Source: the human T2T-CHM13v2.0 reference genome, Homo sapiens. Taken from it: a DNA stretch of 64,000 bases. This document shows positions 11,543-17,061 of this stretch, piece after piece. Numbering within the stretch: the first letter of the stretch is position 1; every line of letters starts with the position of its first letter. The notes beneath the pieces were generated by a model. It saw nothing but the letters and a program-made list of their open reading frames with translations. It made no database searches and was not told the origin of the DNA. The position numbers were made by a program, and so were the translations under genes. The stretch lies in the NCBI RefSeq assembly GCF_009914755.1, contig NC_060939.1. One strand, given 5' to 3'.

Positions 11543-11625
11543 CCACACTCTACTTTCTAAAGGGCATGCTAAACTTCTGGAATTCGTATTTGAAGCTCCT
11601 CATAGGATTTTTTTTTTTTTTTTTT

Positions 11626-11990
11626 GGTGAGCAACAAGGCTGTTTATTTCACCTGGGTGTAGGCAGGCTGAGTCCGAAAAGAGAGTCAGCGCAGGGAGAT
11701 AGGAGTGGGACCGTTTTTTGGGTAGGTAAAGGAAAATTACAGTCAAAGGGGGATTGTTCTCTGGCGGACAGGAATGGGGGTCACAAGGTGCTCAGTAGGG
11801 GAGCTTTTGAGCCAGGATGAGCCAGGAGAAGGAATTTCACAAGATAATGTCATCAGTTAAGGCAGAAACAGGCCATTTTCACTTCTTTTGTGGTGGAATG
11901 TCATCAGTTAAGGCAGGAACCGGCCATCTGGGCATATACGTGCAGGTCACAGGGGATATGATGGCTTAGCTTGGGCTCAGAGGCATGACA
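11626..11990 (-). promoter_or_regulatory. LTR7 U3-R (3' end), polyA signal AATAAA at 11643-11648
   Basis: Starts tgtcatgcctctgagcccaagctaagccatcatatcccc; duplicated ttaactgatgacatt block; ends gttgctcacc then polyA. Confidence 0.93.
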
Positions 11991-13822
11991 TTCCTGTCTT
12001 CATATATTAATAAGAAAAATAAAACAAAATAGTGGTAAAGTGTTGGGACAGCAAAAATTTTTGGGGGTGGTATGGAGAGAATGGGCGATGTTTCTCAGGG
12101 CTGCTTCGAGCAGGATTAGGGGTGGCATGGGAACCTAGAGTGGGAGAGATTAAGCTGAAGGAAGATTCTGTGGTAAGGGGTGATATTGTGGGGTTGTTAG
12201 AAGAAACATTTGTCATGTAGAATTATTGGTGATGGCCTGGATACGGTTTTGTATGAATTGCAAAACTAAACGGAATAAAAGAAGGAGAAAAACAGGTATT
12301 AAAGGACTAGGAATTGGGAGGACCTAGGACATCTAATTAGAGAGTGCCTAAGGAGGTTCAGCATAGCCTTGCCAGCAAAGATTATTTATTTACTTTGAGA
12401 GTTAAGAGTGGCAGTTTGGGGATAGCACCAGGAGATATCAGCTGTGATGGCTTGGAGAAACAGTGTAAACTGGTAGTGTAAACAAGAGCAGGGCATTTAT
12501 GAGTAGTTGAGAACGGTGAATAAGAGTATGACTAGACAGAAAATAGTAGGGATGACAAGTTTTTTGGGGCACAGTCTAGGTTGGTCTAGTGTCTGGGACG
12601 AGACTGGGGCCTAATAAAAAGGAGCATCTATACAGGAGCTTAAATGGGCTGTACCTTGTAGCATTCCAAGGACAGGCCTGAATTCTGAGAATGGCAAGAG
12701 GTAAAAGTATTGTCCAGTCCTTTTTAAGTTGGAGGCTGAACTTGGTGAGGTATGTCTTTAAAAGACCATTAGTCCGTTCTACCTTTCCTGAAGATTGAGG
12801 ACGGTAAGGGATATGAAGGTTCTACTGAATACTAAGAGCCTGATAAACTGCTTGGGTGATTTGACTAGTAAAGGCTGGTCTGTTATCAGACTGTATAGAG
12901 GTGAGAAGGCTAAACCAAGGAATTATGTCTGACAGAAGGGAAGAAATGACCGCGGTGGCCTTCTCAGACCCTGTGGGAAAGGCCTCTACCTATCCAGTGA
13001 AAGTGTCTACCCAGACTAAGAGGTATTTTTGTTTTCTGACTCGGGGCATGTAAGTAAAGTCAATTTGCCAGTCCTGGGCAGGGGCAAATCCTTGAGCTTG
13101 ATGTGTAGGAAAGGTGGAACTGCCATCAATAAACTAAATGTGATCAGGGTGAGGAACAGGGAAGAAGGAAATATGGAGAAATGGGGTGAATGTCAGGTGG
13201 ATCAGAGAGATGCAGTCATGAGGGTCAGGTGTGGTATCCAGAATAATGTGGGAGGCAGATTAAAGTCCGGGCCAGGAACAATGGTAATTGTGGGAGACTC
13301 AACAAAGAGTGAGTACAGCTGAAGGAGCCAGGGAGCAGAGCGTATATGCCTCAGGTGTGAGAAAGAAAATAGATTTTGGAAGTTATGAGAGTTGTAGAAA
13401 GTGAGTTGAGTGTGATTTTGAGGGCCTCTAAAACTATTAGGGCGGCGGCAGCCACTGCACGGAGACATGATGGCCAGCCTAAAACAGTAAGGTCAAGTTG
13501 TTTGGACAAAAAGCCTACAGGACACGATCCTGGTCCTTACATAAAAATTCTGACTGTACAGCCCTGCACTTCAGCTGTGTGTAATGAAAAGGGTTGGGAT
13601 GAGTCAGGGAGAGCTAGGCAGTCTTTAAAGCTGTCTTCAAGGAACGGAAAGAGAATTGGGGAAAGGATTTAGGATCTATGGGATCAGCTAGGTTTCTTTT
13701 TGTGAGTTTATATAATGGTTTTGTTAGGATGGCAAAACCAAGTATCTAAAGTCGAAAGTATCTAACCATGCCTAGGAAGGAAAGGAGTTGTTGTTTTGTA
13801 GAAGGTGCTGGGGTTTGAGAGA

Positions 13823-14146
13823 TCAGTCGGACATGATCAGCAGGGAGAGCACGTGTGTTTTTATGAGAATTATGCTGAGATAGGTAACAGATGAGGAAGA
13901 AATTTGGGCTTGACTGAAGTAATGGGGGCTGTCTGTGAAGCTTTGCGGCAGTACAGCCCAGGTAATTTGCTGAGCCTGATGGGTGTCAGGGTCAGTCCAA
14001 GTGAAAGCAAAGAGAGGCTGGGATGAAGGGTGCAAAGGAATAGTAAAGAAAGCATGTTTGAAATCCAGAACAGAATAATGGATTGTGGAGGGAGGTATTG
14101 AGGATAGGAGAGTATATGGGTTTGGCACCACGGGGTGGATAGGCAA
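13823..14146 (-). pseudogene. HERV-H pol (reverse transcriptase) remnant
   Basis: PVVPNPYTLLSSIPP...SVLDFKHAFFTIPLHP...WAVLPQSFTDSPHYF are gammaretroviral RT motifs; truncated before YXDD. Confidence 0.9.
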
Positions 14147-14526
14147 AACAATTTGATTGATAAGGTGCAGATCCTGAACTAACCTGTAAGCCTTGTATGG
14201 TTTTAGGACAGGTGAAATGGGGGAATTGTAAGGGGAGTTTTTAGGCTATAAAAAGCTATGCTATAGCAGGTGAGTGATAACAGGTTTTAATCCTTTTAAA
14301 GCATGCTGTGGGATGGGATATTGGCATTGAGCGGGGTAAGGGTGATTAGGTTTTAATGAGATGGTAAGGGGTGCATGATCGGTTGCCAAGGAAGGAGTAG
14401 AGGTATCTTATACCTGTGGGCTAAAGTGGGGAGATACAAGGGGAGGATGTGAAGGAGGCTTTGAACTGGGGGAAAAGGAGGCATGTAGCCCAGGAATAGT
14501 CAGGGAAGCAGATAATTTAAAGTGTC

Positions 14527-14751
14527 TCAGCCTAATAAGGGAACTGGGCAGGTGGGGATAACTAAAAAGGAGTGCTTAAAAGAGTATTGTCTAAGTTGGC
14601 ACCAGAGTTGGGGAGTTTTAAGAGGTTTAGAAGCCTGGCCGTCAATACCCACAACAGTTATGGAGGCAAGGGAAACAGGCCTTTGGAAAGAAGGTAATGT
14701 GGAGTGGGTAGCCTCCGTATTGATTAAGAAGGGGATGGACTTACCTTCCAC
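14527..14751 (-). pseudogene. HERV-H protease remnant
   Basis: FLINTEATHSTLP = degenerate aspartic protease FL(I/V)DTGA motif; ends CPVPLLG. Confidence 0.85.
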
Positions 14752-14926
14752 TGTGAGAGTTACCCAGAGTGTCTGTGATGATCCTGTAGGCTTCCGAGGC
14801 GATTGGGCACTGTCAGTCTTCAGCTGCTAAGCCGAGAAGATCTGGGAAGGAGTCAGTCAGAGAGCCTTGGGCCAGAGTTCCAGGGGCTCTGGGAGTGGCT
14901 GCCAGGTAAGTTGAACAGTCCGATTT

Positions 14927-15142
14927 TCAGTGGGGTCCCACACAGATGGGACGCGGCTTAGGAGGAATCCTGGGCTGCGGGCATTTCTTGGCCCAGTGGC
15001 CAGATTTCCGGCACTTGTAGCAAGCTCCTGGGGGAGGAGGTTCTGGAGGAACCCCTGGCAGCTGCGGTTCAGGTGTTTGGAAGTTCTTGTGTGCTGGAGA
15101 TGTGGCTGGGGTTTGTCTCACAGTGGAGGCAAGGAATTGCAA
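14927..15142 (-). pseudogene. HERV-H gag nucleocapsid remnant
   Basis: Zinc knuckle CYKCRKSGHWAKKC (CX2CX4HX4C) plus degenerate second knuckle. Confidence 0.88.
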
Positions 15143-16592
15143 CTCAGAAATATGTTGCTACTTGGTTGCCTTTACTCTATTATTGTACACCTTGAAGGTG
15201 GGGTTAAATAAGTTCCTGTTGTGGGGTTTGAGGGCTGGAACTTAATTTTTGGAGCTTTATTTAATGTCGGGAACAGATTGGGTAATAAAATAAAATGTAT
15301 ATTGAGAATAAGACGGCCTTTTGACCTTTTAGGGTCTAGGGCTGTAAAGCCTCTCAGGGTTGCTGACGAATGAGCCATGAACTGGGCTGGGTTTTTTATA
15401 TTTGATGAAAAAGAGTCTAAACGCTAACTGATTCGGGAGAGGTGGGATAAAGAAAAAGGAGCATTAACCTTGACTATGCCTTTAGCTCCAGCCACCTTTT
15501 TAAGAGTAAATTGCTGGGCAGGTGGGGGAGGGCTAGTCGCGGAACCAAACTGTAAGCCAGGCGGGTGTAGAAGGGGAGGTGATAAAAGGATTATAGGGTG
15601 GAGGATCGGAGGCTGAGGAAGAATCGGGACCTAGCTCTGCCTGGTGAGGAGGGGAGAGGTCAGATGGGTCTGTAGAAAAGGAAGATTAGAAAGACTCAGC
15701 GACGCTTGGGGTTGGGACTGAGGGGACAGGCGGGAGGGAAAGAAGGAAGATTTGGGACGAGTTGCATTGGGAACAGAGACTAGACCTATGTGTAAAAGAA
15801 TGCCTGGACGTCAGGCACCTCAGACCATTTGCCCATTTTACGACAAGAATTATCTAGATCTTGTAGGATGGAAAAATCGAAAGTGTCGTTTTCTGGCTAT
15901 TTAGAGTCATTTTCAAGTTTGTATTGGGGCTAAGCAGTGTTGCAGAAGAAAATAAGATGCTTAGATTTTAGGTCAGGCGAGAGTTGAAGAGGTTTTAAGT
16001 TCTTAGGAACACAGGCTAAGGGAGAAGAAGGAGGAATGGAGGGAGGGTGGAATGTTGCCTATAGCGAAGGAGGCAAGTTTAAAGAAAAGGGCAGAGATAC
16101 GGAGAAGGGGGTGGGGAGCAGCCAAAGCAGGTGTCCCCGCAATTGACTTGCCACTAAGGGAACATGGGTGAATGATCAAGGCAGGCGTCCCGAGGAGATC
16201 AGACACCAATGGAACGTGGGTGAACAATCACAGAGGCGTCCCTGCAGTGATTAAACACCAAGGGAAGGCTGACTTCCCGAGTCCGTGACCGGCGCCAGAG
16301 TTTTGGGTCCACAGATAAAATGTGTCTCCTTTATCTCTACCAGAAAATGAAAGGAACTGAAATGAAGAGAAGGGAGAGACTGAAGTGTGGCAACAAGATT
16401 GAAAGGAGAAAGAGGTTGAGGGATAGTGAGGGAGGCTGGAGAAGAGAGTAAAAAGAGGCCGCTTACTGGATTTAAAATTGGTGAGATATTTCTTGGGCTG
16501 GTTGGTCTGAGGACCAGAGGTCGTAGGTGGATCTTTCTCATGGAACAAAGAGCAGGAGAACAGGGGATTGATCTCCCAAGGGAGGTCCCCCG

Positions 16593-16610
16593 ATCCGAAT
16601 CACGGCACCA
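16593..16610 (-). other. Primer binding site complementary to tRNA-His
   Basis: Minus strand tggtgccgtgattcggat, 2 nt after the U5 end ...catgaaa. Confidence 0.92.
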
Positions 16611-17061
16611 AATTTCATGGGCATCTGTGTGGAGACCACCAAACAGGCTTTGTGTGAGCAACAAGGCTGTTTATTTCACCTGGGTGCAGGTGGGCTGACT
16701 CCGAAAAGAGAGTCAGCCTCTTCATAGGATTTGTCTGTAACATTTGTATGTTTACTTGGGAATATTCTAGGGCCCTCCTTAGAATTACAGTTTTTGACTG
16801 ATTCCATTAGCTTTTTTTTGAGAATAAAAAACTACAAGAGATATACTATTATTAAATGAATACTGGAAATACAAAACAAACTAGAAATAAGAGGAAACCT
16901 TTCCTGATTCTACCACAGAAAGACAATCGCTGCTAATGTCTGATGACTTTCCTCTTTCGTTTTTCATTCATAGACTTTTCTGGTAACGGTTTTTCAATGT
17001 TTCAAGTGTGCTCCAAATACTAATTGCTATGTCACTCTAAAAGTGTCTATTGTGTGATGAA

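What the first reader, a model, noticed from the sequence alone, without database searches (positions are those of the whole stretch)
11596..16732. HERV-H copied as an mRNA by L1 machinery, not integrated as a provirus
Seen: the 5' end has only R-U5, the 3' end has only U3-R followed by A18 about 17 nt after AATAAA, and the element is flanked by a 15-bp TSD (ctcctcataggattt / ctcttcataggattt). Integrase would leave two full LTRs and a ~5-bp TSD. The internal region is unspliced (PBS, gag, pro, pol remnants, PPT), so a ~5.1 kb genomic RNA was reverse transcribed to completion. Established: such processed ERV pseudogenes are common for HERV-W and reported but uncommon for HERV-H. Automated annotation would probably call this an ordinary LTR7-HERVH-LTR7.
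Basis: partly seen in the sequence, partly recalled or inferred. Interest (0 to 1): 0.8.

Follow-up and report, generated by a model that had tools for sequence, protein, structure and literature searches.

The report
L1-made retrocopy of HERV-H RNA
This 5.1-kb stretch is a copy of a full-length, unspliced HERV-H retroviral RNA that was pasted into the genome by the LINE-1 machinery rather than by retroviral integration, and it is one of at least several dozen such copies in this genome.

Summary
The element lies on the minus strand. It starts at the first base of R (GCTGACTC, window 16717), with no U3 upstream. It runs through U5, the PBS and gag-pro-pol remnants. It ends U3-R-poly(A), with the tail 17 nt after AATAAA and no U5. 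A 15-bp target-site duplication (14 of 15 identical) flanks it at 11596-11610 and 16718-16732. One correction: the A-run is 18 bases in total, so the reading is A15 plus a 15-bp TSD, or A18 plus a 12-bp TSD.

The same genome holds 56 LTR7 R-poly(A) junctions (reversed-pattern control 0). I examined 29 of them:
- 11, including this one, start at the same R nucleotide.
- One more is an R-only copy.
- Three, probably four, have twin-priming-type 5' inversions.
- Ten are 5' truncated.
- Three are chr9 duplicates of one insertion.

Nine of the 12 copies that start at R nt 1 carry an extra G at the 5' junction, as expected from a reverse-transcribed cap. Two are spliced forms.

The mechanism is known from HERV-W. 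No paper describing HERV-H retrocopies turned up in the held library, and reviews there call HERV-W the sole or only commonly LINE-copied HERV. The orthologous empty site could not be tested. Interest is moderate.

The parts
16718..16732 (-). 5' copy of the target-site duplication (sense AAATCCTATGAAGAG)
   Evidence: (D14). It abuts the first base of R directly.
16653..16717 (-). 5' R, starting GCTGACTC at 16717 (the RNA 5' end); no U3 upstream
   Evidence: (D1). The same start nucleotide is seen in 11 other retrocopies.
16613..16652 (-). U5 (about 41 nt, ...CATGAAA); present only at this end
   Evidence: alignment with complete LTRs and with a 5' LTR followed by a PBS (L007).
16593..16610 (-). 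Primer-binding site TGGTGCCGTGATTCGGAT
   Evidence: Read. The same motif follows the 5' LTRs of L007 and of the chr5 provirus. The tRNA-His assignment is from memory.
16461..16466 (-). Retained leader splice donor (GTAAGC). The spliced retrocopy L047 is joined here.
14927..15157 (-). gag nucleocapsid remnant (zf-CCHC frame)
   Evidence: PF00098, E 1.8e-6.
14527..14826 (-). Protease remnant (RVP frame). A second retained splice donor (AAG|GTAAGT) lies at about 14744.
   Evidence: PF00077, E 6.7e-6. for the donor.
13823..14245 (-). Reverse transcriptase remnant (RVT_1 frame)
   Evidence: PF00078, E 1.4e-8.
12822..12989 (-). Integrase core remnant (weak)
   Evidence: PF00665, E 0.0029, 18.3 bits, below the curated cut-off of 32.6.
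12135..12136 (-). Retained splice acceptor (CTCTCCCACTCTAG|G), used in the spliced retrocopy L042
11991..12002 (-). Purine tract (TGAAGACAGGAA) just upstream of U3
11691..11990 (-). 3' U3 (starts TGTCATGCC). It has a private 7-bp deletion of the TATAAAA box at about 11717/11718.
   Evidence: (91-93% identity to 39 other LTR copies).
11626..11690 (-). 3' R with AATAAA at 11648-11643, ending ...GCTCACC; no U5 follows
11611..11625 (-). Poly(A) tail (15 A; the A-run is 18 if the 3 A of the TSD are counted)
11596..11610 (-). 3' copy of the target-site duplication (sense AAATCCTATGAGGAG)
   Evidence: (D14).

Best explanation
A genomic-length, unspliced transcript of an env-less HERV-H provirus was made elsewhere in the genome. 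It was initiated at the R start of the 5' LTR, capped, and cleaved and polyadenylated in the R of the 3' LTR. LINE-1 ORF2p then used it in trans. The endonuclease nicked the window's + strand at ...GGATTT/GTCTGT, and the T-rich 3' end primed reverse transcription on the poly(A) tail. The cDNA was extended to the 5' end of the RNA, and a staggered second-strand break 15 bp away produced the TSD. The result is a 5092-bp R-U5-gag-pro-pol-U3-R copy plus tail. It has no 5' promoter, so it cannot be transcribed like a provirus, and it has decayed neutrally since.

- **Shown:** the anatomy, the TSD, and the family of sister copies with L1 hallmarks.
- **Inferred:** L1 as the enzyme, germline or early-embryo timing, and an age of roughly 15-35 million years. 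The age comes from about 7% divergence to the nearest relatives and substitution rates recalled from memory.
For: **This locus**
- The ends are R-U5 at the 5' end and U3-R-A(n) at the 3' end, and the tail starts 17 nt after AATAAA.
- The TSD is 14 of 15 identical and sits exactly at both junctions. It is the only such match at that spacing in the window.
- The 5' end lies 30 nt downstream of the TATAAAA of complete LTRs.
- The order gag-pro-pol is colinear.
- The element keeps the introns that spliced sister retrocopies lack, with GTAAGT...CTCTAG intact.
- The whole element matches typical HERV-H copies at 86-93%.

**The class**
- There are 56 R-poly(A) junctions in the genome, against 0 for the reversed pattern.
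- Of the 29 examined, 11 are long copies that start at the same G of GCTGACTC, all with TSDs of 12-17 bp that begin A-rich.
- 8 of those 11 carry an extra G, and so does an R-only copy.
- L046, L048 and L016 carry an inverted 5' segment next to the direct 3' segment. In L046 the two are only 3 nt apart in RNA coordinates.
- Poly(A) addition sites vary among GCTCA, GCTCAC, GCTCACC and GCTCACAG, as expected of mRNA 3' ends.

**Literature**
Against: - The inferred nick site here, 5'-ATTT/GT-3', is only a partial match to the L1 consensus TTTT/AA. The sister copies fit better (TTTT/AA, TTCT/AA, TCTT/AG).
- An extra cap-derived G cannot be shown at this locus, because the base in question is also the last base of the TSD.
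- No empty orthologous or paralogous site was available. The flanks at the insertion point are unique in this genome, and no other primate genome is held.
- No source provirus closer than 92-93% was found.
- For 3 of the 17 loci where I looked for a TSD (L043, L044, L045), none was resolved.
Confidence: 0.95

Rival explanations
1. An ordinary integrase-made HERV-H provirus that later lost its 5' U3 and its 3' U5 by two separate deletions.
For: HERV-H proviruses are numerous and often rearranged. The closest relative on chr2 has a 5' LTR broken next to an Alu.
Against: - Both deletions would have to end exactly at the R boundaries.
- An A tail would have to arise exactly at the polyadenylation site.
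- A 15-bp direct repeat would have to sit exactly at the new ends.
- Eleven other copies begin at the same nucleotide, which deletions cannot explain.
- No short integrase-type duplication next to TG...CA LTR ends is present.
Confidence: 0.01
2. The copy was made by reverse transcription of HERV-H RNA but entered at a pre-existing DNA break or by another reverse transcriptase, that is, endonuclease-independent L1 or non-L1 insertion.
For: The nick site ATTT/GT lacks the A after the nick that the L1 endonuclease consensus has (Kojima 2010 passages).
Against: - A 15-bp TSD, an intact tail and a complete 5' end are typical of endonuclease-dependent target-primed reverse transcription.
- Three of the four bases before the nick are T.
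- The sister copies have canonical sites.
- Retroviral reverse transcription starts at the PBS and does not copy a poly(A) tail (established knowledge).
Confidence: 0.03
3. The retrocopy arose elsewhere and reached this site by segmental (DNA-level) duplication.
For: DNA-level duplicates of such loci exist: three chr9 R-poly(A) loci share one 3' flank, and the chr2 and chr5 proviruses share one 3' flank.
Against: - The right flank has only its self match in the genome.
- The left flank matches elsewhere only over an older repeat that ends more than 50 bp before the TSD.
- No other copy is above 93% identity.
- The TSD sits at this site.
Confidence: 0.01

Closest known systems
HERV-W processed pseudogenes (L1-mediated). 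Pavlicek et al. 2002 was seen only as a reference-list entry; for Grandi et al. 2016 (PMC5016936) I saw the search listing, abstract start and HERV-H passages.
   Same: The architecture is the same: R-U5-internal-U3-R-poly(A), no 5' U3, no 3' U5, long A-rich TSDs, and frequent 5' truncation. The enzyme is L1 acting in trans on a retroviral RNA.
   Different: - The family differs: HERV-H with an LTR7-type LTR and a His-type PBS, rather than HERV-W with LTR17.
- In HERV-W these copies are the majority of the family (recalled). Here at least 56 junctions stand against what I recall as about a thousand HERV-H proviruses.
[quoted passage not shown]
Ordinary mRNA processed pseudogenes and L1 trans-mobilised retrocopies (Kojima 2010, PMC2912911, passages read)
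   Same: A capped poly(A) RNA is the template. [quoted passage not shown]
   Different: The template is an unspliced 5.1-kb retroviral genomic-type RNA, so the copy keeps its introns and carries a complete U3 promoter/enhancer at its 3' end.
Integrase-made HERV-H provirus (LTR7-HERVH-LTR7)
   Same: The internal sequence is the same and colinear at 86-93%, and the LTR sequence is of the same type.
   Different: It has no complete LTR at either end, a poly(A) tail, and a 15-bp rather than a short TSD. It has no promoter at its 5' end.
Spliced HERV-H elements in genomic DNA (Goodchild, Freeman and Mager 1995; recalled only, not seen)
   Same: HERV-H RNA isoforms re-inserted into the genome. The sister loci L042 and L047 are spliced forms.
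   Different: As I recall it, those elements have LTRs and were attributed to retroviral-type retrotransposition. The copies here end R-poly(A) with L1-type TSDs. I could not check the paper.

Membership tests
L1-mediated processed pseudogene / retrocopy | The 5' end coincides with the transcription start of the source RNA (for full-length copies) | tested here: met
   The element starts at GCTGACTC, 30 nt after the first T of TATAAAA in complete LTRs. Eleven other copies start at the same base, 9 of them with an extra G.
L1-mediated processed pseudogene / retrocopy | The 3' end lies at the polyadenylation site and is followed by an A tail | tested here: met
   The A-run of 15-18 bases starts 17 nt after AATAAA, and no U5 follows.
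L1-mediated processed pseudogene / retrocopy | A target-site duplication of about 7-20 bp directly at both junctions | tested here: met
   15 bp, 14 of 15 identical, at 11596-11610 and 16718-16732. It is unique at that spacing in the window.
L1-mediated processed pseudogene / retrocopy | A first-strand nick at an L1 endonuclease-type site (5'-TTTT/AA-3') | tested here: inconclusive
   Here the site is ATTT/GT: 3 of 4 T before the nick and no A after it. The sister copies have TTTT/AA, TTCT/AA, TTTT/AT and TCTT/AG.
L1-mediated processed pseudogene / retrocopy | An empty pre-integration site with a single copy of the TSD in an outgroup or paralogue | not testable with these tools
   No other primate genome is held. 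The flanks are unique at the insertion point, so there is no paralogous empty site.
Integrase-made provirus | Two complete LTRs (U3-R-U5), each bounded by TG...CA | tested here: not met
   Only a repeat of about 65 nt (R) is shared by the two ends (D1). U3 occurs only at the 3' end and U5 only at the 5' end.
Integrase-made provirus | A short (4-6 bp) target-site duplication directly outside the LTR ends | tested here: not met
   The duplication is 15 bp and abuts R and the A tail.
HERV-H (LTR7-type) family | LTR and internal sequence similar to other HERV-H copies, with gammaretrovirus-type gag-pro-pol and a His-type PBS | tested here: met
   U3-R is 91-93% identical to 39 other LTR copies. 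The internal part is 86-93% identical to many proviruses. Pfam gives zf-CCHC, RVP and RVT_1. The names LTR7 and HERV-H and the tRNA-His assignment rest on my recall of the consensus, because no Dfam library was available. The LTR7 subtype was not determined.

The most novel reading that the evidence does not exclude
HERV-H has a sizeable L1-dependent copying route that has not been catalogued. T2T-CHM13 holds at least 56 R-poly(A) junctions. Among the 29 examined, at least 12 start at the capped transcription start, and the set includes unspliced, singly spliced, multiply spliced and R-only forms. This would contradict the review statement that HERV-W is the sole L1-mobilised HERV. It would also provide a dated fossil record of the start site, poly(A) sites and splice isoforms of HERV-H RNAs in the ancestral primate germline or early embryo. 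The copies themselves are real. The probability given is that the class has not been described in print.
Probability: 0.4. Interest if true: 0.55.

Novelty: new member of a known kind. Interest (0 to 1): 0.45.

Why it matters
- **Annotation and expression.** HERV-H/LTR7 is widely studied as a pluripotency-associated transcript and enhancer source. Copies like this one look like proviruses to annotation but have no 5' promoter, so they distort locus-level expression analysis.
- **Dating.** LTR-LTR dating cannot be applied to them, and they affect solo-LTR and provirus counts.
- **A free-standing regulatory module.** Each copy carries a U3-R at its 3' end. Here that stretch overlaps the RefSeq 'enhancer' feature 11612-12140.
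- **A record of past transcription.** As a class the copies show that HERV-H RNA was abundant where L1 was active in the germline or early embryo of ancestral primates. They preserve its start site, poly(A) sites and splice forms.
- **Field view.** They qualify the view that only HERV-W is copied by LINEs.
- **Limit.** The mechanism itself is textbook, so the locus alone is not surprising.

Tried and rejected
- **Paralogous empty site.** The left flank (window 11250-11610) hits 39 other places, but only over an older repeat at query 125-291, which ends before the TSD. The right flank (16718-17100) has only its self match. No empty-site test was therefore possible.
- **Source locus.** The whole-element search (24 of 2595 first-look candidates scored) gave no relative closer than 92-93%. 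The best were chr2:37.39M and chr5:145.14M. Both have a complete 3' LTR with U5 and share one 3' flank, so they are DNA duplicates of one provirus. They belong to the same subclade (shared U5 variant ...CACACAGATGC...) but are not an identifiable source. No tree was built, because too few ordinary LTRs were fetched.
- **Literature on HERV-H processed pseudogenes.** Searches found none. Exact phrases such as 'HERV-H processed pseudogene' and 'HERVH retrocopies' returned 0 papers. Pavlicek 2002 is not held, and older subscription papers are not searchable, so a report may still exist in print.
- **TSDs at three 5'-truncated loci.** For L043, L044 and L045, no TSD or only a low-complexity one was found.
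- **A chr2 copy that looked like another retrocopy.** In one search, chr2:37.39M seemed to have R without U3. I rejected that after reading its ends: it has U5 at the 3' end, and an Alu abuts R at the 5' end.
- **LTR7 subtype and RepeatMasker labelling.** No Dfam library was available, so neither was checked.

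
Full report
**1. What is at the coordinates**

The element lies on the minus strand. Read in sense orientation, the upstream flank ...GTTACAGAC is followed by AAATCCTATGAAGAG (window 16732-16718). GCTGACTCTCTTTTCGG... follows immediately, starting at 16717. This is the start of R. About 65 nt of R and about 41 nt of U5 (...CATGAAA) lead to TT and TGGTGCCGTGATTCGGAT (16610-16593), which from memory is the His-type primer-binding site of HERV-H.

At the other end a purine tract (TGAAGACAGGAA) precedes U3, which starts TGTCATGCC at 11990. 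R follows and ends ...AATAAA CAGCCTTGTTGCTCACC. Then come an A-run, AAATCCTATGAGGAG (11610-11596) and unrelated flank.

The repeat finder finds only two terminal repeats: the R/R pair (69 nt, 91%) and the 15-mer pair (14 of 15 identical, spacing 5122). The A-run is 18 bases in total (window 11608-11625 on the + strand), and three of them also belong to the 15-bp duplication.

**2. Is it more than chance?**

At spacing 5122 the only 15-mer with at least 14 of 15 matches in the 64-kb window is the one at 11596. Over 2000 random spacings between 3 and 9 kb the mean was 0.0225 such hits per window. The duplication also sits exactly at both junctions.

**3. The ends compared with complete LTRs**

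The window's own genome could be searched. The U3-R stretch matches 39 other places at 91-93% (40 of 2893 first-look candidates scored). I aligned nine of them with the window's two ends.
- Six have U3-R-U5. One of these (L007) is a 5' LTR followed by the same PBS.
- The window's 3' end stops, and the A tail begins, exactly where their U5 (ACAAAGCCTGTTTGG...) starts.
- The window's 5' end begins at GCTGAC, 30 nt after the first T of their TATAAAA box.
- Three of the nine (L002, L008, L009) also end R-poly(A).

**4. Internal structure**

Pfam on 22 minus-strand frames gave four matches:

| Domain | Window frame | Result |
|---|---|---|
| zf-CCHC | 14927-15157 | E 1.8e-6 |
| RVP | 14527-14826 | E 6.7e-6 |
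| RVT_1 | 13823-14245 | E 1.4e-8 |
| rve | 12822-12989 | E 0.0029, below cut-off |

The order is gag-pro-pol, and nothing env-like was found. The whole 5092-bp element is colinear with many HERV-H copies at 86-93%. So this is the common env-less form, and it is not a spliced subgenomic RNA.

A direct control comes from two sister retrocopies.
- L042 (chr22:28.2M) joins ...GTGGAAG to GTTCCC.... In the window's element these points are AAG|GTAAGT (about 14744) and CTCTCCCACTCTAG|G (about 12135), a canonical intron that the window's copy retains.
- L047 (chr12:114.0M) is joined at the leader donor, which reads CAG|GTAAGC in the window's copy (about 16466).

**5. A class, not a one-off**

An exact pattern for the R end followed by ten A found 26 distinct loci (reversed-pattern control 0). 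A 35-place pattern with up to 3 mismatches found 56 distinct loci (control 0). A few of these, such as the ones reading ...CACACACACAAAAAA, may not be true tails. Three on chr9 are duplicates of one insertion, because they share the same 3' flank.

I examined 29 of the 56:

| Class | Number | Loci or notes |
|---|---|---|
| Long copies starting at the G of GCTGACTC, with no U3 upstream | 11 | this locus; chr16:68.77M; chr22:28.2M; chr12:114.0M; chr2:199.73M; chr5:12.43M; chr6:81.69M; chr8:89.87M; chr8:116.94M; chr10:110.45M; chr11:81.06M |
| R-only copy of about 67 nt | 1 | chr14:33.49M, with a perfect 13-bp TSD |
| Inverted 5' segment next to the direct 3' part | 3 | L046, L048, L016; in L046 the two parts are 3 nt apart in RNA coordinates |
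| Probable inversion (42-nt inverted piece) | 1 | L045 |
| 5' truncated | 10 | |
| chr9 duplicates, 5' extent unresolved | 3 | |

I looked for TSDs at 17 loci and found them at 14. They are 12-17 bp long and all begin A-rich. At three loci (L043, L044, L045) none was resolved.

In 9 of the 12 copies that start at R nt 1, one extra G lies between the TSD and GCTGAC. At this locus and at chr8:116.94M the base is ambiguous with the TSD. At chr2:199.73M it is absent.

Passages of Kojima 2010 (PMC2912911) give the L1 signatures:
- nicking at TTTT/AA;
- a TSD peak at 14-16 bp;
- a G from a reverse-transcribed cap.

The tail start also varies among GCTCA, GCTCAC, GCTCACC and GCTCACAG, as expected of mRNA 3' ends.

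**6. Mechanism**

The best explanation is L1 target-primed reverse transcription, in trans, of a capped, polyadenylated, unspliced HERV-H RNA.
- The inferred first nick is on the window's + strand at GGATTT/GTCTGT. ATTT/GT is a partial match to the consensus, and this is the weakest point for this locus.
- The sister copies have TTTT/AA, TTCT/AA, TTTT/AT and TCTT/AG.

The rivals are all poorly supported. They are a provirus with two terminal deletions, endonuclease-independent or non-L1 insertion, and arrival by segmental duplication. The flanks are unique, and no copy is closer than 93%.

**7. Age and source**

The nearest relatives are a provirus present as DNA duplicates on chr2:37.39M and chr5:145.14M. 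They are 92-93% identical to the element, share its U5 variant, and have full LTRs. With about 7% pairwise divergence and substitution rates recalled from memory, the insertion is at most roughly 15-35 million years old. This is inference only.

The other long retrocopies are 84-90% identical to this one, and some carry a different U3 type. The class therefore has several sources.

**8. What is known**

[quoted passage not shown] Vargiu et al. 2016 did not separate processed pseudogenes from proviruses (PMC4724089, passages).

Nine full-text searches found no description of HERV-H processed pseudogenes. The founding paper (Pavlicek 2002) and other older papers are not held, so I cannot say the class is unpublished.

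**9. Verdict**

The mechanism is known, so this is a new member of a known kind. The added value is the evidence that it belongs to a class of dozens that appears under-described.

Side observations:
- The 3' U3 of this copy has a private 7-bp deletion of its TATA box (about 11717/11718).
- That U3-R stretch lies inside the RefSeq 'enhancer' feature 11612-12140.

The decisive missing test is the orthologous empty site in other primates.

Noticed in passing
L059 (G000:C14:33486761-33495261), sense position about 7960-8030 of the reverse complement: An R-only HERV-H retrocopy of about 67 nt. It has a perfect 13-bp TSD (AAAACTCTGTTCT), one extra G, then R from GCTGAC to GCTCAC, then a poly(A) tail. 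It looks like a transcript that started at the LTR start site, was polyadenylated in the same R, and was then copied by L1.
   Followed up: partly
L042 (G000:C22:28197417-28206917): A spliced HERV-H retrocopy. It starts at R nt 1 and lacks the stretch that in the window's copy is bounded by AAG|GTAAGT and CTCTAG|G. It has an A tail and a TSD of about 12 bp.
   Followed up: partly
L047 (G000:C12:113990500-114000000): An 818-bp multiply spliced-looking retrocopy. It matches the window element at positions 1-249, 1780-1927 and beyond, and 4719-5090. It has a 17-bp TSD and an extra G. Only the first junction was matched to a canonical donor.
   Followed up: partly
L027, L030, L031 (G000:C9 at 42.41M, 47.59M and 77.28M): Three R-poly(A) loci with a different, classical-looking LTR7 U3 share the same 3' flank. 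They are therefore segmental duplicates of one insertion, and locus counts overstate the number of events.
   Followed up: partly
L049/L050 (G000:C2:37.39M) and L062/L063 (G000:C5:145.14M): The two closest relatives of the window's element are proviruses that share the same 3' flanking sequence, which indicates DNA-level duplication between chr2 and chr5. In the chr2 copy an Alu abuts the R start, and the U5-PBS-leader is missing.
   Followed up: partly
window about 11717/11718, within 11612-12140: The orphan 3' U3 has a private 7-bp deletion that removes the TATAAAA box present in all 9 compared LTRs and in both LTRs of the chr5 provirus. Even so, the U3-R stretch coincides with the RefSeq 'enhancer' feature.
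   Followed up: no
window 11846-11927: A 31-nt direct repeat at a spacing of 51 nt lies inside U3 (AATGTCATCAGTTAAGGCAG...). It is also present in the related LTRs aligned, so it is a feature of this LTR type.
   Followed up: no
window about 11390-11540: A long T-run is followed by an older interspersed repeat, with 39 other genomic matches at 74-98%. It lies just left of the insertion site and ends before the TSD.
   Followed up: no
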